Origin: Candidatus Aenigmatarchaeota archaeon
GTDB taxonomy: Archaea > Aenigmatarchaeota > Aenigmatarchaeia > Aenigmatarchaeales > JAHLMR01
Length of the DNA stretch: 64,000 bases
Assembly (NCBI GenBank): GCA_018920255.1
Contig: JAHLMR010000001.1
Span: 1,058-65,057 of the forward strand
Reading direction: 5' to 3'
The position numbers were made by a program, and so were the translations under genes. Under the pieces are notes generated by a model. It was not told where the DNA came from. It did not search any database and worked only from the letters and a program-made list of their open reading frames with translations. This document shows positions 9,497-61,616 of the stretch, piece after piece. How positions within the stretch are numbered: position 1 is the stretch's first letter; the number at the start of each line of letters is the position of its first letter.

Positions 9497-10702
9497 ATGA
9501 TAAAAAGAGCAGAAAAAGAATTTGAAAAGATTTCCCCAAAAGAATTAATAGAATTAGAGTTTAGAGATGATAATTCAATAAAAATACCAACTAATAAGTA
9601 TGGCAAAGTTTTAGATAATTATATTAGTCGTGTATCTACTGTCTTTAATGGGCATGATTTTAATACAATATTACTTGGTGATCCAGGTTCAGGAAAAACA
9701 TATTTTGTTCTTGGATTAACTAAATACTTTAACAGTGAATATTTTAAACAACCTCGCAATCCTGAAAATACAGTTAAATTTTATTATATTGATAAAAAGG
9801 AGGATTTTTCTTCTAGAGAAATGAATATAAAAGGATTTCCAATAGGTGTTGGTATAATAGATGATTTTGATTATAGATTTCATTTGGATTATTGTAAAGG
9901 AAAAGATTGTTCAAAACTTGCTAGCAATCTTATAGATTTATATAATAAATTAAAGGAAGAAGAGCGCAATGTAATAATTATATCAAATGAAGAAATTACT
10001 TCTTTAGCTAAAAGATTTATTACTGATGAAGAAATTAAAAAATCATTTATACAAACATTTGATAATTTTTTAGTGGCAGAAGAATTAAGTTATAATATAG
10101 TAGATGAAATATTATTAAAAAAACAATTACCAGAAAATATACCTTCAAAAGCTAGCGTCACAAGATTTGGTAATTTAACTTGTTCATCTTCAAACCCTAT
10201 ACGTTTATGGAATAATTTAAAAGAAAAAATTGGTAATATAAGTGATGAAATTCCTTTAATTTTTCCAGAAGTTAAGAGTAAAGATTTTAATAAAATTTAT
10301 TCTTCTCCTAAAGTTATAAAAGTTTTTATCGGATCACATCATATTTATTTAGATATGGATGACTATAGAATTGATGTATTTAGATTTAATTTCTTAACAC
10401 CAAGAATTTTATCTTCAGTTAAAGAAGAATTAGGCGGGGAGATAAGTTTAGGAAGCTTATCAAATTACTTTAAAATAAAAATAAACCCCAGAATTATAAC
10501 AAATAAAATTTGTTCGGAACCTTTTAGTATCTATAATTTTAAGTATGGAGAAACTATTAAAAATTTATTAGAAAAATTTTATGTAAATAATTGTATGAAA
10601 GAAGATAATTTTTCAAATTTTATTAAAAATGCTTCAAAAACAGAGACAGATGAAGATTTTAAAAATTTATATAGGAAATATGAATTAAAATTACAGGCAT
10701 AG
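9497..10702 (+). CDS. P-loop NTPase of unknown function
   Basis: The Walker A motif LLGDPGSGKTYFVLGL is present, followed by a hhhhD-type Walker B candidate (VIIISNEE). No other recognisable domain. Confidence 0.4.
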   Translation: MIKRAEKEFEKISPKELIELEFRDDNSIKIPTNKYGKVLDNYISRVSTVFNGHDFNTILLGDPGSGKTYFVLGLTKYFNSEYFKQPRNPENTVKFYYIDKKEDFSSREMNIKGFPIGVGIIDDFDYRFHLDYCKGKDCSKLASNLIDLYNKLKEEERNVIIISNEEITSLAKRFITDEEIKKSFIQTFDNFLVAEELSYNIVDEILLKKQLPENIPSKASVTRFGNLTCSSSNPIRLWNNLKEKIGNISDEIPLIFPEVKSKDFNKIYSSPKVIKVFIGSHHIYLDMDDYRIDVFRFNFLTPRILSSVKEELGGEISLGSLSNYFKIKINPRIITNKICSEPFSIYNFKYGETIKNLLEKFYVNNCMKEDNFSNFIKNASKTETDEDFKNLYRKYELKLQA

Positions 10703-38557: not shown

Positions 38558-38784
38558 TGGCGCCCCTGACGGGATTTTCTCTGAAACTTCTTTACAACTT
38601 CTTTAAAAAAGAAGTTGCATCAAGAAAATTTATCTTTCTTGCTGAAGCTTCTTTCTTAAAGAAAGAAGCTTCTTTGAACCCGTGACCTCTTGCTTTCTTC
38701 TTTAGAGCGCTTCTCATAGCACAGCTCAAACCTTCTATATTAAAATAGAAGGCAAGCGCTCTGTCCAAACTGAGCTACAGGGGC
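38558..38784 (-). tRNA. tRNA-Arg(TCT) with two introns: a canonical 37/38 intron (~51 nt) and a ~100-nt T-loop (59/60) intron. CCA is encoded.
   Basis: Hand-folded. Acceptor GCCCCTG/CAGGGGC, D stem GCTC/GAGC, anticodon stem CTTGC/GCAAG with loop CTTCTA|intron|A, and T stem ACGGG/CCCGT with TTCAAA|intron|T. Confidence 0.7.
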
Positions 38785-54804: not shown

Positions 54805-54893
54805 TGGTAGCCCCGGTAGGATTCGAACCTACGTCTCAAGGTTTCTTCCAATTGACCAGAGCCTTGCATGCTTGACCGCTACACCACGGGGCT
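54805..54893 (-). tRNA. tRNA-Gln(CTG) with a 13-nt canonical anticodon-loop intron; CCA encoded
   Basis: Minus-strand sequence AGCCCCGTGGTGTAGCGGTCAAGCATGCAAGGCTCTGG[TCAATTGGAAGAA]ACCTTGAGACGTAGGTTCGAATCCTACCGGGGCTACCA. It has an A1-U72 pair, a CAAGG/CCTTG anticodon stem and a GTAGG/CCTAC T stem. Confidence 0.6.
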
Positions 54894-56096: not shown

Positions 56097-56609
56097 ATGT
56101 TAAATGGAACTTTTGAAAAAAATAAAGTTATTGTTGAAGGAGAAGGAATAAAAAATTTATTTAATAATGGTTGGTATGGAAATATTGAAAATAATAAACT
56201 TATTTTAGACTTATTTGAAGCAGCATTTCTTTTAGAACGTGGAAAAATAGAAATTTTTAAGGATAATGAAAAAATTAAAATAGATGAATTTTTTGGCATA
56301 TGTTGTAATCTCGATAAAAGTTTTATGTATAAATATTCAGTATATTCTGATTTAAGAAATAGAGGTTTAATAGTAAGAGCTGGATATATTGGTACAGATT
56401 TTAAAGTTTATGAAAGAGGAGCAAAGCCAAATAAAAATGAAAAAATTAAATGGATTGTTTTTGTTTCATCAGAAGAATATCCTTGTATTTTAGAACAACT
56501 TGGAAAAGCAATAAAACTTTCTCAAAATATAAGAGCAACAGCTGTTTGGGCTGTAGTTGATACTGATTTAGATGTTACATATTATATTATAAATTCAATA
56601 ATTCCGTGA
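56097..56609 (+). CDS. endA: tRNA-splicing endonuclease, probable structural (beta-type) subunit
   Basis: EndA fold motif YSVYSDLRNRGLIVRAGYIGTDFKVYERG. The position of the catalytic His reads NEK, so the His is absent. It overlaps the next gene by 4 nt. Confidence 0.6.
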   Translation: MLNGTFEKNKVIVEGEGIKNLFNNGWYGNIENNKLILDLFEAAFLLERGKIEIFKDNEKIKIDEFFGICCNLDKSFMYKYSVYSDLRNRGLIVRAGYIGTDFKVYERGAKPNKNEKIKWIVFVSSEEYPCILEQLGKAIKLSQNIRATAVWAVVDTDLDVTYYIINSIIP

Positions 56610-57157
56610 GAGTTATGAAAATAAAAGGAATTTTGCTAAATAATAGAGTAAGAATATATGATTTTAATAAAGCAAAAAGTATTTATGAGGAAGGATATTA
56701 TGGAAAACTTAAGGAAGATTGTTTAGATTTATCATTAATAGAAGCATGTTATTTATTAGAAAAAGAAAAAATTATTATAGAAGATAGTAATAAAAACCAA
56801 TTAAATTTTGAAGAATTTTATAAAAAGTGTCAAGAAATAGATGAAAGATTTCATATAAAATATATTGTATATTCAGATCTAAGGAATAGAGATTTGCCAA
56901 CTAGAACAGGGTTTAAATTTGGTTGTGATTTTAGAGTTTATAACAGGGGAGTAAAACCAATAAAAAGAGGTCCAAAAGCTCCACATGAACACACGAAATG
57001 GATAGTTTTTGTAATTCCTTATAATTATAAATTTACATTTCCAGAATTTTCTAGAGCAGTAAGACTTGCACATAATATTAGAGCACACATGCTTTGGGCT
57101 GTTGTTGATGAAAATAAAGAAGTTAAATATTTTGAAATAACATTCTTCAAACCATAA
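56606..57157 (+). CDS. endA: tRNA-splicing endonuclease, probable catalytic (alpha-type) subunit
   Basis: YIVYSDLRNRDLPTRTGFKFGCDFRVYNRG, followed by PHEHTKWIVFV with the catalytic Tyr and His candidates. It is a paralogue of the upstream gene. Confidence 0.65.
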   Translation: MRVMKIKGILLNNRVRIYDFNKAKSIYEEGYYGKLKEDCLDLSLIEACYLLEKEKIIIEDSNKNQLNFEEFYKKCQEIDERFHIKYIVYSDLRNRDLPTRTGFKFGCDFRVYNRGVKPIKRGPKAPHEHTKWIVFVIPYNYKFTFPEFSRAVRLAHNIRAHMLWAVVDENKEVKYFEITFFKP

Positions 57158-57296
57158 TGGTGGGGTGGGCGCGACTCCCAGCAACTTCTTTTAAGAAAAG
57201 AAGTTGCGAACCTTCTTTCTTAAAGAAAGGAGGTTTTTTGAACGCGCGACACCACGGTCTTCAGCCGTGTGCTCTCCCGGGCTGAGCTACCACCCC
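57158..57296 (-). tRNA. tRNA-Phe(GAA) with a 63-nt T-loop (59/60) intron; CCA encoded
   Basis: Minus-strand sequence GGGGTGGTAGCTCAGCCCGGGAGAGCACACGGCTGAAGACCGTGGTGTCGCGCGTTCAAA[AAACCTCC...GCTGGGAG]TCGCGCCCACCCCACCA. All four stems pair canonically. Confidence 0.7.
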
Positions 57297-57333
57297 GGCT
57301 TTTAAAATTATAATTTCAAAAGAATTTAAAAGT

Positions 57334-57588
57334 TTATTTTTTAATTTTAATAGAATATATCCAAAAATCTTTTGCAAATTTTTCATTTAAAATATTAATC
57401 AACTTTCCTTTTTCTTTCAAATGATTTTCACAAATTTTAACTTCCGCAAGATCTTTTTTTATTTGTTTTTTTATATTAGTTTTTGTAATAATAAAAGAAT
57501 CAAAATATTTATTCTTACAATTTTTAAAACTACATATATTTACATCTTTTCTAAAATCAAAAATTTTTAATAAAAATTCAATGTCTTC
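57334..57588 (-). CDS. Hypothetical small protein (start trimmed to avoid tRNA-Asn)
   Basis: The listed ORF 57334..57672 runs into the tRNA-Asn gene. The internal Met (MEDIEFLLK...) gives an 84-aa Cys/Lys-rich product. Weak. Confidence 0.2.
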   Translation of the reverse strand, partial: EDIEFLLKIFDFRKDVNICSFKNCKNKYFDSFIITKTNIKKQIKKDLAEVKICENHLKEKGKLINILNEKFAKDFWIYSIKIKK

Positions 57589-57604
57589 CATTATTTCACC
57601 AAAA

Positions 57605-57793
57605 TGGCGCCTGGGACAGGATTTTCTTCGAAACTTCTTCGAAACTTCTTTTAGAAAAAGAAGTTTCATCAAGAAAATTTGTCTTTCTTGATGAACCTTC
57701 TTTCTTAAAGAAAGAAGGTTTTTTGAACCTGTGACCTAGTGGTTAACAGCCACTCGCTCTTTGTTGTTGAAATTCCAACTGAGCTACCCAGGC
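57605..57793 (-). tRNA. tRNA-Asn(GTT) with a ~100-nt T-loop (59/60) intron and a ~13-nt extra insertion in the D-loop; CCA encoded
   Basis: Minus-strand sequence GCCTGGGTAGCTCAGTTGG[AATTTCAACAACA]AAGAGCGAGTGGCTGTTAACCACTAGGTCACAGGTTCAAA[intron]TCCTGTCCCAGGCGCCA. Confidence 0.65.
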
Positions 57794-59309: not shown

Positions 59310-59396
59310 AGCGGGATGGGGCAGCCAGGAGTGCCCGTCGGGCTCATAATTTTTTAAGAAACCCGAAGGTCGGACGTTCAAATCGTCCTCCCGCTA
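59310..59396 (+). tRNA. Initiator tRNA-Met(CAT) with a 12-nt anticodon-loop intron; CCA not encoded
   Basis: Sequence AGCGGGATGGGGCAGCCAGGAGTGCCCGTCGGGCTCATA[ATTTTTTAAGAA]ACCCGAAGGTCGGACGTTCAAATCGTCCTCCCGCTA. It has an A1-U72 pair and three G-C pairs at the base of the anticodon stem, both initiator hallmarks. Confidence 0.7.
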
Positions 59397-60047: not shown

Positions 60048-60620
60048 ATGATATCTGAAGCATCTGGACAGTTTTTGTTAAGATTTTCAAGACAGGCTAT
60101 TATAGAATATTTAAAAAATAAAAGAAAAATAGACATTCCAAAAAATTATCCAAAAGAACTTAATGAGAAAAAAGGAATTTTTGTTACACTACATAAAGAA
60201 ATTAGGAACGGAATTTATGAACTAAGAGGTTGTATGGGAATACCATATCCAATTATGCCAATAATAGAAGCAGTTATTGAAGCATCTATTTCTGCTGCAA
60301 ATGATCCAAGATTTATTAAACTAAAGGAAGACGAATTAAAAAAAATTAAAATTGAAATTTCAATTTTAACAGAACCAGAATTAATTAAAGTAAAAAAACC
60401 AGAAGATTATTTGAAAAATATAAGATCAAAAATTGATGGTTTAATTATTAAAAAAGGAATAATGTCTGGATTACTCTTACCTCAAGTTTGGAATGAAGTG
60501 AAGGATAAAGAGGAGTTTCTTAACATTCTTTGTTATAAAGCAGGCTTATTAAGAGATTCATGGAAAGATCCATCAGTAGAAATATATAAATTTCAAGTTC
60601 AAATTTTTAAGGAAAAATAA
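60048..60620 (+). CDS. AMMECR1-domain protein
   Basis: GIFVTLHKE...LRGCMGIPYP matches the AMMECR1 signature LRGC[IM]G. Confidence 0.75.
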   Translation: MISEASGQFLLRFSRQAIIEYLKNKRKIDIPKNYPKELNEKKGIFVTLHKEIRNGIYELRGCMGIPYPIMPIIEAVIEASISAANDPRFIKLKEDELKKIKIEISILTEPELIKVKKPEDYLKNIRSKIDGLIIKKGIMSGLLLPQVWNEVKDKEEFLNILCYKAGLLRDSWKDPSVEIYKFQVQIFKEK

Positions 60621-60621
60621 T

Positions 60622-60694
60622 CCGTCCGAGAAGAAAAAAGACTCGGACGGTGAGGAGGCAACGGGATTCTAGGTATTTTTAAACCTAGAATCCA
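60622..60694 (+). terminator. Two consecutive GC-rich hairpins downstream of the AMMECR1 gene
   Basis: Hairpin 1 is CCGTCCGAG-aagaaaaaaga-CTCGGACGG and hairpin 2 is GGATTCTAGGT-atttttaa-ACCTAGAATCC. They stand out in ~25% GC DNA. Confidence 0.35.
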
Positions 60695-60937
60695 TATTAA
60701 CTATTTATAAGTAAAGATATTTAAAGTTTTCTATTATTATGTTAATAGTTAAACTATAAGTTCAGGTTTTAACTATTATTAAACTTTTTTAAATAAATCT
60801 TTCAATATCATTTTTATGCATTGGCCTACAATTAGCGTAATTCTGCTTGATAAAATTAACAAAGAAATTATTTACTTATTCTTTTGTTAAAAATATTTAT
60901 ATTAATAGTTAAAATATAATTTTTAACTAAAATTTAT

Positions 60938-61077
60938 GCCCCTGTAGCTCAGTTTGGACAGAGCGCTTGCCTCCTAAGCAAGATGTCGCGCGTTCAAAGA
61001 ACCTTCTTTCTTTAAGAAAGAAGGTTCGCAACTTCTTTTCTTAAAAGAAGTTGCTGGGAGTCGCGCCAGGGGCGCCA
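60938..61077 (+). tRNA. tRNA-Arg(CCT) with a 62-nt T-loop (59/60) intron; CCA encoded
   Basis: Sequence GCCCCTGTAGCTCAGTTTGGACAGAGCGCTTGCCTCCTAAGCAAGATGTCGCGCGTTCAAA[GAACCTTC...GCTGGGAG]TCGCGCCAGGGGCGCCA. Its exons are almost identical to tRNA-Arg(TCT) at 38558-38784. Confidence 0.7.
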
Positions 61078-61112
61078 TAATTTTATAAATTCTGAATTTA
61101 TTTATTTAGATT

Positions 61113-61616
61113 ATGAAAAGAAAACAAAATTATAATTTTCTATATATTCTATTTTTTATTATTTTGTTTTTAGGAGTTTTTTCATTTGCATTATTGATTC
61201 AAAATAAACCATCAAATGAATTAATAAAGGTTTGGCCCGGCGGAATTTTAGAAGTAGATGGAAATAAAATAATTTTAGGAATTAATTGTACTGCAATAGT
61301 AGCTGAAACATCTTCTGAAAGAGCAGAAAACATACAACTAGGATTAAATAAAATTATATCAAAAAGACCATCAACATATGATACGTTTTATGAAGTTCTT
61401 AAAAGTTTTAATATAACATTAGAAAGAGTAGAGCTTTTGTATTTTGATGGAAAGTATTATTATGCTGATGCTGTTTTTAAAAGTAAAGATAAACAATTAA
61501 GAATTGATTTAATGCCTTCTGATGCAATAGGCCTTGCAGTAAGGGCAGATGCAGAAATTTATGTAAACAAATCTTTATTATATGAAATAGGTAAGGATAT
61601 CTGTGAAGAAGAATAA
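61113..61616 (+). CDS. Bifunctional-nuclease (BFN/DUF151) domain protein with N-terminal membrane anchor
   Basis: DLMPSDAIGLAVRADAEIYV matches the DUF151 hallmark (D.RPSDAIALA.R...PI.V). Confidence 0.55.
   Translation: MKRKQNYNFLYILFFIILFLGVFSFALLIQNKPSNELIKVWPGGILEVDGNKIILGINCTAIVAETSSERAENIQLGLNKIISKRPSTYDTFYEVLKSFNITLERVELLYFDGKYYYADAVFKSKDKQLRIDLMPSDAIGLAVRADAEIYVNKSLLYEIGKDICEEE

What the first reader, a model, noticed from the sequence alone, without database searches (positions are those of the whole stretch)
57158..57793. A family of near-identical modular hairpin introns inserted at T-loop position 59/60 in four tRNAs
Four tRNAs are each interrupted between TTCAAA and the last T-loop nucleotide: tRNA-Phe (57158-57296), tRNA-Asn (57605-57793), tRNA-Arg-CCT (60938-61077) and tRNA-Arg-TCT (38558-38784). 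The inserts share the same hairpin modules. H1 is CCTTCTTTCTT-TAA-GAAAGAAGG and H3 is CAACTTCTTTT-CTTAA-AAGAAGTTG, ending in GCTGGGAG. The two long versions (~100 nt, in Asn and Arg-TCT) add an H2 hairpin (ATCAAGAAAG-ACAAATTT-TCTTGATG) and a GAAGTTTCGAAG tail. The Phe and Arg-CCT introns (62-63 nt) are about 95% identical to each other, although the tRNAs are unrelated isoacceptors. Non-canonical 59/60 introns are known in a few archaeal lineages, but one sequence family spread across different tRNAs at the same site suggests recent intron gain by transposition or gene conversion. All four of these genes, and tRNA-Gln, encode their 3' CCA.
Basis: seen in the sequence. Interest (0 to 1): 0.8.

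Follow-up and report, generated by a model that had tools for sequence, protein, structure and literature searches.

The report
Hairpin introns in archaeal tRNA T-loops
Four tRNA genes of an uncultured Aenigmatarchaeota (DPANN) archaeon carry related hairpin-built introns at T-loop position 59/60, next to the genes of the enzyme that should cut them out; this kind of intron is known, but here closely related strains carry different versions of it.

Summary
tRNA-Phe, Asn, Arg(CCT) and Arg(TCT) carry inserts of 62, 100, 62 and 98 nt in the T-loop. The inserts are built from shared hairpin modules, and these occur nowhere else in about 80 kb examined.

Removing the inserts in silico gives perfect cloverleafs. 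Each junction can form a relaxed bulge-helix-bulge motif that places the cuts at 59/60, the T-arm equivalent of the canonical 37/38 site. Two tandem splicing-endonuclease genes, one alpha-like and one beta-like, end exactly where tRNA-Phe ends.

The source is a Candidatus Aenigmatarchaeota population. Related species have unrelated introns of 10 to 52 nt at the same site with the same junction motif, and one relative has none. MAGs about 99.3% identical to the window carry different module mosaics in the same tRNA genes. Identity between Phe and Arg(CCT) extends into the T-arm exons. This points to gene conversion between tRNA genes.

Introns at 59/60 (ARMAN-2, cleaved in vitro) and intron families shared between tRNAs (Thermoproteales) are already published. 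I therefore rate this a new member of a known kind, with the strain-level mosaicism as added value. Splicing itself is inferred, not shown.

The parts
57158..57296 (-). tRNA-Phe(GAA) gene with encoded CCA, interrupted by a 62-nt T-loop intron at 57175-57236 (hairpins H1 + H3, tail GCUGGGAG).
   Evidence: Sequence. The spliced form is a perfect tRNA-Phe by ARAGORN. Junction motif. The 5' part alone gives a sub-threshold Rfam tRNA hit of 24.3 bits.
57605..57793 (-). tRNA-Asn(GTT) gene with encoded CCA. It carries a 100-nt T-loop intron at 57622-57721 (H1 + H2 + H3 + duplicated GAAGUUUCGAAG tail) and a probable 13-nt D-loop intron at 20/21 (about 57761-57773).
   Evidence: For this intron the minimum-free-energy fold of T-arm plus intron is itself the BHB-like fold. 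The allele is identical in all five assemblies compared.
60938..61077 (+). tRNA-Arg(CCT) gene with encoded CCA and a 62-nt T-loop intron at 60999-61060 (H1 + H3). Its T arm and part of its variable loop are identical to those of tRNA-Phe.
   Evidence: Other MAGs carry an 87-nt H1+H2+H3 allele at this site.
38558..38784 (-). tRNA-Arg(TCT) gene with encoded CCA. It has a canonical 51-nt intron at 37/38 with a strict 4-bp BHB, plus a 98-nt T-loop intron at 38575-38672 (H1 + H2 + H3 + tail).
56606..57157 (+). tRNA-splicing endonuclease, catalytic (alpha-like) subunit. Its stop codon abuts the 3' end of tRNA-Phe on the other strand.
   Evidence: Pfam PF02778 + PF01974. Best PDB matches are M. jannaschii EndA 1a79 (E 1e-31) and N. 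equitans alpha 3iey_A (E 6e-30). The catalytic Tyr and His are kept, and a 7-aa insert precedes the His. The third catalytic residue, Lys, is Ala.
56097..56609 (+). tRNA-splicing endonuclease paralogue, structural (beta-like) subunit. It overlaps the alpha gene by 4 nt.
   Evidence: Pfam PF02778 + PF01974. The catalytic His is replaced by Lys and the catalytic Lys by Ala. The tandem pair is conserved in related contigs.
54805..54893 (-). tRNA-Gln(CTG) with a 13-nt canonical intron and no T-loop intron. It serves as an internal comparison.
   Evidence: The Gln gene of relative L017 does carry a 10-nt T-loop intron.
59310..59396 (+). tRNA-Met(CAT), initiator-like, with a 12-nt canonical intron, no T-loop intron and no encoded CCA. 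It serves as an internal comparison.
   Evidence: The orthologue in relative L019 carries a 33-nt T-loop intron.

Best explanation
These are archaeal protein-spliced (endonuclease-dependent) tRNA introns at position 59/60.

In the precursor, the 5-bp T stem is the outer helix. T-loop bases U54-A57 pair with the four intron bases that lie three nucleotides before the 3' splice site (UGGG, CGAG or AGAA). This leaves two 3-nt bulges, A58 A59|N and A R|U60, four base pairs apart. Hairpin H1 starts directly after the 5' bulge and acts as the inner helix. H2 and H3 branch off opposite it.

This is the same geometry as the canonical 37/38 intron, moved from the anticodon arm to the T arm. The alpha/beta splicing endonuclease encoded beside tRNA-Phe would cut in both bulges, and an RtcB-type ligase would join the exons to restore UUCAAAU. 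That ligase was not seen in the window, so its involvement is inferred.

The long inserts are self-folding hairpins with one pyrimidine-rich and one purine-rich arm. They sit in the part of the intron that carries no constraint. They spread and reshuffle between tRNA genes by DNA-level gene conversion that uses the similar T arms and the shared modules as homology.

Shown: the anatomy, the restoration of cloverleafs, the junction motif, the enzyme genes and the allele mosaics. Inferred: actual cleavage and ligation, and the recombination mechanism.
For: - Removing the inserts yields perfect 76-78-nt cloverleafs for all four tRNAs.
- With the register fixed in advance by the 37/38 analogy, 10 of 11 T-loop introns show 3-4 pairs in the central helix, always including C56-G, and 3-nt bulges on both sides. 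The 11 introns are six alleles of this species and five introns from other DPANN contigs.
- The BHB-like fold equals the minimum-free-energy fold for Asn and for L017 Gln, and lies within 0.7-5.8 kcal/mol of it for the others.
- The same register gives a strict 4/4 helix for the canonical intron of Arg-TCT (sequence).
- Two 10-nt mini-introns in relative L017 consist of nothing but this motif.
- Tandem endonuclease genes, one with Tyr/His and one without His, lie next to tRNA-Phe and are conserved in relatives.
- A 13-nt intron at 59/60 with a relaxed hBH motif was cut in vitro by the endonuclease of another DPANN archaeon, ARMAN-2 (PMC3239211).
- For gene conversion: the Phe/Arg-CCT identity covers TGTCGCGCGTTCAAA...TCGCGCC, beyond the intron. 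Arg-CCT and Arg-TCT are nearly identical outside the anticodon, the variable loop and the T arm.
- In MAGs 99.1-99.4% identical to the window, Arg-CCT carries 79 nt that are 98.7% identical to the Asn intron, fused to its own tail. Phe carries 43 nt identical to the Asn intron.
Against: - No RNA data: excision, ligation and the exact cut sites are inferred.
- The 5' cut lies in a multi-branch junction rather than a clean bulge. The central helix has a mismatch at A57 in the long forms and two G-U pairs in the short forms.
- For the short forms, the energy minimum prefers UUC/GAG with a 1-nt bulge.
- In the long forms, runs of A on both sides of the intron leave the splice position ambiguous by 1-3 nt from sequence alone.
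- The alpha-like subunit lacks the canonical catalytic lysine.
- All genomes are metagenome assemblies, and contigs often break inside these hairpins, so some allele mosaics could be assembly chimeras. Against that, the variant alleles recur in two or three separate assemblies.
- Only about 80 kb of the genome could be searched for copies outside tRNAs.
Confidence: 0.78

Rival explanations
1. The hairpin modules are a small mobile DNA element (a MITE-like palindromic repeat). It inserts into DNA on its own and is tolerated inside pre-existing mini-introns because splicing removes it.
For: - The modules are near-perfect palindromes, and their number differs between strains at the same site.
- Relatives have 10-nt mini-introns at the same position that could be the ancestral landing pad.
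- The exact 21-nt H1 pattern also occurs in the D-loop intron of a tRNA-Ile in a different DPANN archaeon with 43% GC. Aligning it by hand with the L013 Arg-CCT allele extends the match to 23 nt.
Against: - There is no copy outside tRNA introns in the window or in the extra flanks fetched.
- No terminal inverted repeats or target-site duplications flank the inserts, and no transposase is linked to them.
- Every variant allele can be composed from pieces present in the neighbouring tRNA introns, as expected for recombination rather than de novo insertion.
- The cross-lineage match is to a low-complexity hairpin with one pyrimidine-only arm, a form that could arise convergently.
- Scans of the species-representative genomes and of metagenomes otherwise gave only chance hits.
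Confidence: 0.1
2. The introns spread at the RNA level. An excised intron is reverse-spliced by the endonuclease/ligase pair into the T loop of another tRNA, and is then reverse-transcribed and recombined into the genome. This would be true intron transposition.
For: - The insertion point is the same in unrelated tRNAs, and the BHB-forming tail is kept.
- Transposition is the model proposed in the literature for Thermoproteales, with the mechanism still unknown (PMC4090602).
Against: - Identity between Phe and Arg-CCT extends 15 nt upstream and 7 nt downstream into the exons. A pure intron transfer does not predict this.
- The two intron subtypes follow the two T-arm types: GCGCG goes with the UGGGAG tail, and ACRGG with the GAAAA tail.
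- No reverse transcriptase was seen in the window, though only part of the window was screened.
Confidence: 0.08
3. The interrupted genes are decaying pseudogenes, or the inserts are retained in the mature RNA, and functional copies lie elsewhere.
For: Standard tRNA finders reject them, and only part of the genome is available.
Against: - The exons are flawless, with compensated stems and an encoded CCA.
- The genes are conserved across at least five assemblies, and variation is confined to the intron core.
- DPANN genomes are small and usually have single-copy tRNAs.
- Four of the six tRNAs in 64 kb are affected.
- A 60-100-nt insert in the T loop is incompatible with the T-loop/D-loop interaction in a mature tRNA (established tRNA structural knowledge).
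Confidence: 0.03

Closest known systems
[quoted passage not shown] 2011, PMC3239211)
   Same: It is in a DPANN archaeon and uses the same 59/60 T-loop site. The junction is a relaxed hBH (bulge-helix-loop) type. Its 13 nt is comparable to the 10-nt mini-introns of relative L017. Cleavage at this site by a broad-specificity endonuclease was demonstrated in vitro.
   Different: The ARMAN-2 enzyme is the three-unit epsilon2 type, whereas here there is a two-gene alpha/beta pair. The ARMAN-2 intron is short and single. Here the inserts are 55-100 nt, built from two to three hairpin modules, and shared between four tRNAs.
Thermoproteales tRNA intron families ('large-scale intron transposition', Fujishima et al. 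2010, as summarised in PMC4090602 and PMC4033280)
   Same: [quoted passage not shown] This is read as recent intron gain at the DNA level, made possible by the BHB requirement and a broad-specificity (alpha-beta)2 endonuclease.
   Different: The phylum is different (TACK versus DPANN), the genome has 25% GC, and the endonuclease insert is different. Here the exon T arm is co-transferred, and population-level mosaic alleles are seen.
Nanoarchaeum equitans heterotetrameric (alpha-beta)2 splicing endonuclease (PDB 3iey; Kaneta et al. 2018, PMC5829648)
   Same: There are two separate subunit genes. The alpha subunit has an insertion between the catalytic Tyr and His at the same place as in p2. The enzyme is associated with heavily disrupted tRNA genes.
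   Different: N. equitans alpha keeps the catalytic Lys (RKK), while this family has R-A-N/H. N. equitans is known for split tRNAs rather than T-loop intron families.
Canonical archaeal 37/38 bulge-helix-bulge tRNA intron
   Same: The geometry is the same: a 5-bp stem, a 4-bp helix formed by the first four loop bases with the 3' end of the intron, and 3-nt bulges cut after their second base. The Arg-TCT gene in this window shows both versions side by side.
   Different: The intron is located in the T arm. The inner helix is replaced by a multi-hairpin junction, and the central helix is weaker.

Membership tests
Archaeal endonuclease-spliced (BHB) tRNA intron | It interrupts a tRNA gene, and its precise removal restores a standard cloverleaf. 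| tested here: met
   The spliced sequences are called tRNA-Phe(gaa), Asn(gtt), Arg(cct) and Arg(tct) with perfect stems and 7-nt T loops. The unspliced genes are missed by ARAGORN and by Rfam at gathering threshold.
Archaeal endonuclease-spliced (BHB) tRNA intron | The exon-intron junctions form a bulge-helix-bulge motif or a relaxed variant: 3-nt bulges separated by a 4-bp helix. | tested here: met
   The relaxed form is met. The helix U54-A57 with the intron 3' tetramer has 3-4 pairs, and the bulges are AA|N and AR|U, in all six alleles of this species and in four of five introns from other contigs. The fold lies 0-5.8 kcal/mol above the minimum free energy. The 5' bulge opens into a multi-hairpin junction, so this is not the strict hBHBh' form.
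Archaeal endonuclease-spliced (BHB) tRNA intron | The genome encodes a splicing endonuclease able to cut relaxed motifs at non-canonical positions. | tested here: inconclusive
   An alpha-like and beta-like gene pair is present, with an insert as in N. equitans alpha. However, the catalytic Lys is Ala in this whole protein family, and substrate range cannot be read from sequence.
Archaeal endonuclease-spliced (BHB) tRNA intron | The intron is excised and the exons ligated in vivo or in vitro. | not testable with these tools
   No transcriptome data or biochemistry was available. The closest experimental precedent is cleavage of the ARMAN-2 tRNA-Cys 59/60 intron (PMC3239211).
Shared ('transposed') intron family, Thermoproteales type | Introns in non-orthologous tRNAs at the same position have highly similar sequences. 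| tested here: met
   Phe versus Arg-CCT: 60 of 62 positions identical. Asn versus Arg-TCT: 63 nt at 93.7%. H1 is shared by all four.
Shared ('transposed') intron family, Thermoproteales type | The intron is absent or different in the orthologous tRNA of related species, implying recent gain. | tested here: met
   tRNA-Phe has no T-loop intron in L027, a 10-nt unrelated one in L017, and 55- to 62-nt ones here. tRNA-Arg(TCT) in L027 has only the canonical intron. Sampling of relatives is small.
MITE / palindromic mobile repeat | Copies are dispersed in non-tRNA DNA, with terminal inverted repeats and target-site duplications. | tested here: not met
   There are no significant copies outside the four tRNAs in 64 kb plus the extra flanks fetched. 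No target-site duplication is visible at the junctions. The whole genome was not available.
Self-splicing group I/II intron or other curated RNA family | It matches a curated covariance model. | tested here: not met
   Rfam with permissive thresholds gives only sub-threshold hairpin-type hits, none within 17 bits of its family's gathering score, plus the tRNA 5' parts. The inserts are far too short for a ribozyme intron.

The most novel reading that the evidence does not exclude
The hairpin modules, each with one pyrimidine-rich and one purine-rich arm, are a distinct self-propagating element class. They live only inside tRNA introns of DPANN archaea, at T-loop, D-loop and anticodon-loop sites. 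They move between tRNA genes, and possibly between lineages, using the splice motif as a safe harbour. If so, tRNA introns in these reduced genomes act as nurseries for a mobile RNA/DNA hairpin family, and the turnover can be followed at strain level.
Probability: 0.15. Interest if true: 0.7.

Novelty: new member of a known kind. Interest (0 to 1): 0.45.

Why it matters
1. Annotation. Standard tools found one of the six tRNAs in this window and none in seven related contigs. tRNA counts are used to judge the quality of metagenome-assembled genomes and to infer decoding capacity. They will therefore be badly underestimated for these archaea, as Kaneta et al. 2018 suspected for DPANN.

2. Intron evolution. 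The origin and spread of archaeal tRNA introns is still debated. Here the process is visible within one species: the same tRNA gene carries different module mosaics in genomes about 99.3% identical, and the exon T arm travels with the intron. This favours gene conversion and makes the question testable with long reads and population data.

3. Enzymology. The adjacent alpha/beta endonuclease lacks the textbook catalytic lysine yet must process most of the cell's tRNAs. That makes it a worthwhile target for biochemistry.

Tried and rejected
- ARAGORN and Rfam at gathering threshold on the raw window found only tRNA-Gln. I therefore located tRNAs by GC islands and with a custom scanner that anchors on the T arm and acceptor stem.
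- An exact-pattern scan for H1 in the species-representative genomes gave three bacterial chance hits. The source species is evidently not matched there. That used the only genome scan.
- The same scan in metagenomes gave eight hits. Six are terminator or coding-sequence chance matches. Two are the same DPANN tRNA-Ile locus.
- Viral contigs gave chance hits only.
- A C/D-box guide RNA inside the intron was considered, because H2 ends in UGAUGA. I rejected it because no D box (CUGA) follows and Arg-TCT has UGAUGC instead (read by eye from the sequences).
- I first read the H1 loop difference (TAA versus AAA) as an inversion of the hairpin. It is equally a single substitution, so I make no claim.
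- The LeuRS look-up with the longest ORF failed because the start codon was wrong. The MinD-like neighbour worked instead.
- One relative (P0023) returned no DNA.
- The original Thermoproteales transposition paper is not in the library, so the comparison rests on two reviews.
- Rfam on the GC-rich hairpins at 60625-60700 found nothing.

Full report
**What is in the sequence**

The window has about 25% GC, and short GC-rich islands mark its structural RNAs. Reading these islands gives six tRNA genes:

- Arg(TCT), 38558-38784 (-)
- Gln(CTG), 54805-54893 (-)
- Phe(GAA), 57158-57296 (-)
- Asn(GTT), 57605-57793 (-)
- an initiator-like Met(CAT), 59310-59396 (+)
- Arg(CCT), 60938-61077 (+)

 ARAGORN and Rfam at gathering threshold see only Gln.

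Phe, Asn, Arg(CCT) and Arg(TCT) are each interrupted after TTCAAA in the T loop, by 62, 100, 62 and 98 nt. H1 is CCTTCTTTCTT-TAA-GAAAGAAGG. H2 is ATCAAGAAAG-ACAAATT-TTCTTGAT. H3 is CAACTTCTTTT-CTT-AAAAGAAGTTG. There are two kinds of 3' tail.

The H1 and H3 patterns are far above chance, at 8 and 4 matches against 0.03 and 0.00 expected. They occur only in these four genes. A sensitive BLAST of all intron alleles finds nothing significant elsewhere in the window. About 16 kb of extra flank from other assemblies holds no further copies. The Phe and Arg(CCT) introns differ at 2 of 62 positions, and the Asn and Arg(TCT) introns share 63 nt at 93.7%.

**Are they introns?**

If the inserts are removed between positions 59 and 60, all four genes become textbook cloverleafs of 76-78 nt with a 7-nt T loop UUCAAAU. 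For Asn this also needs removal of a 13-nt D-loop insert, and for Arg(TCT) removal of a 51-nt anticodon-loop intron.

I then asked whether the junctions can form the bulge-helix-bulge motif that archaeal splicing endonucleases need. That motif is two 3-nt bulges separated by a 4-bp helix, with relaxed forms accepted by some enzymes (PMC5829648, PMC3239211). The canonical intron of Arg(TCT) fixes the register. The anticodon stem is followed by C32-C35 paired 4/4 with GAAG of the intron, with bulges UA|U and AA|A (read from the sequence).

Moving the same register to the T arm predicts four things:

- U54-A57 pairs with the four intron bases that lie three nucleotides before the 3' exon.
- The 5' bulge is A58 A59|N.
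- The 3' bulge is N N|U60.
- An intron helix starts right after the 5' bulge.

All six alleles of this species meet this prediction. The intron tetramer is UGGG, CGAG or AGAA, giving 3-4 pairs that always include C56-G. The bulges are AA|R and AR|U. H1 begins immediately after the 5' bulge.

The constrained fold is the minimum-free-energy fold for Asn. For the other alleles it costs 2.2-5.8 kcal/mol more. Position 59/60 is therefore the exact T-arm counterpart of the canonical 37/38 site. The motif is relaxed rather than strict, for three reasons. H2 and H3 branch off opposite the 5' bulge. A57 is mismatched in the long forms. The short forms use two G-U pairs.

**The enzyme next door**

Two overlapping genes at 56097-56609 and 56606-57157 each have the N-terminal and catalytic domains of tRNA-intron endonuclease. 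The stop codon of the second gene abuts the 3' end of tRNA-Phe.

The downstream protein aligns end to end with M. jannaschii EndA and with the N. equitans alpha subunit. It keeps the catalytic Tyr and His. Before the His it has a 7-residue basic insert, at the place where N. equitans alpha also has one. This is plausibly the DPANN 'L3' loop of Kaneta et al. 2018, which they link to broad specificity, but I could not verify that equivalence.

The upstream protein has lost the His. The pair thus looks like an (alpha-beta)2 enzyme. That is one of the two known types that cut non-canonical introns (PMC5829648).

One oddity remains. The third catalytic residue, Lys156 of M. jannaschii, is Ala in the alpha-like protein. 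It is Ala or Ser in all 40 sampled homologues.

**Source and relatives**

The alpha-like protein is identical to one annotated as 'tRNA-intron lyase [Candidatus Aenigmatarchaeota archaeon]'. The locus occurs in several NCBI MAGs. These are 99.1-100% identical to the window.

Contigs from related species, found through endonuclease homologues of 63-72% identity, show that 59/60 introns are common in this lineage but not universal:

- L017 has 10-nt introns in tRNA-Phe and tRNA-Gln. They consist only of the motif: UUCA AA|N NNN UGAA AA|N.
- L019 has a 33-nt intron in the initiator tRNA.
- L026 has a 52-nt intron in a multi-intron tRNA.
- L027 has none in Phe or Arg(TCT).
- An unrelated DPANN contig (L011, 43% GC; taxon) has a 147-nt T-loop intron in a three-intron tRNA-Ile. 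This is the one case that needs a 5-nt bulge to fit the motif.

These introns share no sequence with the window's family beyond the motif and a taste for hairpins with one pyrimidine-rich and one purine-rich arm. The same junction solution recurs with different intron bodies. This is comparative support for splicing at 59/60.

**How the family spreads**

Three observations point to DNA-level gene conversion rather than independent insertion.

- *Shared exons.* Identity between Phe and Arg(CCT) does not stop at the splice sites. It covers TGTCGCGCGTTCAAA upstream and TCGCGCC downstream, which is the whole T arm and part of the variable loop. Arg(CCT) and Arg(TCT) are nearly identical outside the anticodon, the variable loop and the T arm.
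- *Subtype follows T arm.* The intron subtype tracks the T-arm type. GCGCG goes with the UGGGAG tail, and ACRGG with the GAAAA tail.
- *Mosaic alleles.* Other MAGs of the same species carry different alleles in otherwise near-identical DNA. Arg(CCT) has an 87-nt intron whose first 79 nt are 98.7% identical to the Asn intron, joined to its own tail (three assemblies). Phe has a 55-nt intron with 43 nt identical to the Asn intron and a new tail CCGAGAG that still fits the motif (two assemblies). One assembly has a 1-nt deletion in H1. The Asn and Arg(TCT) introns are invariant.

Every variant can be assembled from pieces present in the neighbouring genes.

There is a caveat. These are short-read metagenome assemblies, and contigs often end inside the hairpins, so chimeric joins are conceivable. 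Recurrence of the variant alleles in separate assemblies argues that they are real.

**Comparison with what is known**

Non-canonical positions, including 20/21 and 59/60, are listed for archaeal tRNA introns (PMC4090602). In the DPANN archaeon ARMAN-2, a 13-nt intron at 59/60 with a relaxed hBH motif was cleaved in vitro by its endonuclease. Another ARMAN-2 tRNA has two T-loop introns (PMC3239211). Very similar introns in tRNAs of different specificity are known from Thermoproteales and were interpreted as large-scale intron transposition (PMC4090602, PMC4033280).

The present case is therefore a new member of a known kind. What I did not find described in the texts I could read is threefold: the modular multi-hairpin build, the co-transfer of the T arm, and the strain-level mosaics.

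**Rivals**

- *MITE-like element.* This is not supported. There are no copies outside tRNAs and no target-site duplications. It cannot be excluded without a full genome. The exact 21-nt H1 pattern in a tRNA-Ile D-loop intron of a distant DPANN archaeon extends to 23 nt when aligned by hand with the L013 Arg-CCT allele. It is intriguing, but it could be convergence on a low-complexity hairpin.
- *RNA-level reverse splicing.* This does not predict the shared exon tract.
- *Pseudogenes.* This is unlikely, given flawless exons, conservation across assemblies and the number of tRNAs affected.

**Verdict**

The interest is moderate rather than high, because both the site and the family phenomenon are already published. 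The unproven step is splicing itself.

Noticed in passing
window 57761-57773 (-), inside tRNA-Asn 57605-57793: The D loop of tRNA-Asn is 13 nt too long (AGUUGGA[AUUUCAACAACAA]AGAGC). G15-G18 can pair 4/4 with CAAC of the insert, leaving bulges GA|A and AA|A. This is a relaxed bulge-helix-loop intron at 20/21. Removing it gives a normal D loop with G18 G19 and A21.
   Followed up: partly
window 56606-57157 (+) and homologues P0001-P0120: The catalytic-type endonuclease subunit keeps the Tyr and His of the catalytic triad. It has Ala where M. jannaschii EndA has Lys156 (motif NIRAH/NIRAN instead of SVRKK). All 40 sampled homologues have Ala or Ser there. The beta-like partner also lacks it. How this large DPANN enzyme family does without the textbook lysine is unexplained.
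   Followed up: partly
window 56097-57296: The two endonuclease genes overlap by 4 nt. The stop codon of the second is immediately followed by the 3' end (CCA) of the convergent tRNA-Phe gene. In relative L017, tRNA-Phe lies just upstream of the same gene pair and tRNA-Gln just downstream. The enzyme and some of its substrates thus stay linked.
   Followed up: partly
whole window; loci L011, L017-L020, L026, L027: ARAGORN and Rfam (gathering threshold) detect one of six tRNAs in the window. ARAGORN detects none in seven related contigs, which hold at least seven interrupted tRNAs between them. tRNA counts for such genomes from standard pipelines will be far too low.
   Followed up: yes
window 60625-60700 (+): Two strong GC-rich hairpins (CCGTCCGAG...CTCGGACGG and GGATTCTAGGT...ACCTAGAATCC) lie just after the AMMECR1-like gene, in a 320-nt AT-rich spacer before tRNA-Arg(CCT). 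There is no Rfam match. They could be a small RNA or a terminator-like element.
   Followed up: partly
window 59310-59396 (+): The initiator-like tRNA-Met is the only one of the six tRNAs without an encoded CCA (it ends ...TCCCGCTACTA). It has no T-loop intron here, but its orthologue in L019 (5202-5346) has a 33-nt T-loop intron and does encode CCA.
   Followed up: no
L012, L023, L025, L033; GCA_038999735.1 contigs on either side of window about 60620-61140: Independent assemblies break inside or next to the intron hairpins of Phe, Arg(TCT) and Arg(CCT). The palindromic modules fragment short-read assemblies, which also means that allele calls need read-level confirmation.
   Followed up: partly
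L011 5496-5896 (also L006) and L026 13464-13766 (-): Other DPANN contigs carry tRNAs of 300-400 nt with introns at two or three sites: D loop, 37/38 and 59/60 in L011; at least D loop and 59/60 in L026. Most of these introns start with a hairpin that has one pyrimidine-run arm and one purine-run arm. The D-loop intron of the L011 tRNA-Ile contains the exact H1 pattern.
   Followed up: partly
L011 76-3051: The methionine adenosyltransferase gene next to that tRNA-Ile is interrupted by intein domains (PF14528, PF14890). Its homologues come in forms of about 830 and about 1240 residues.
   Followed up: no
window 9570-10180: One MAG of the same species (L035) lacks about 610 bp here, relative to the window, or has it rearranged.
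   Followed up: no
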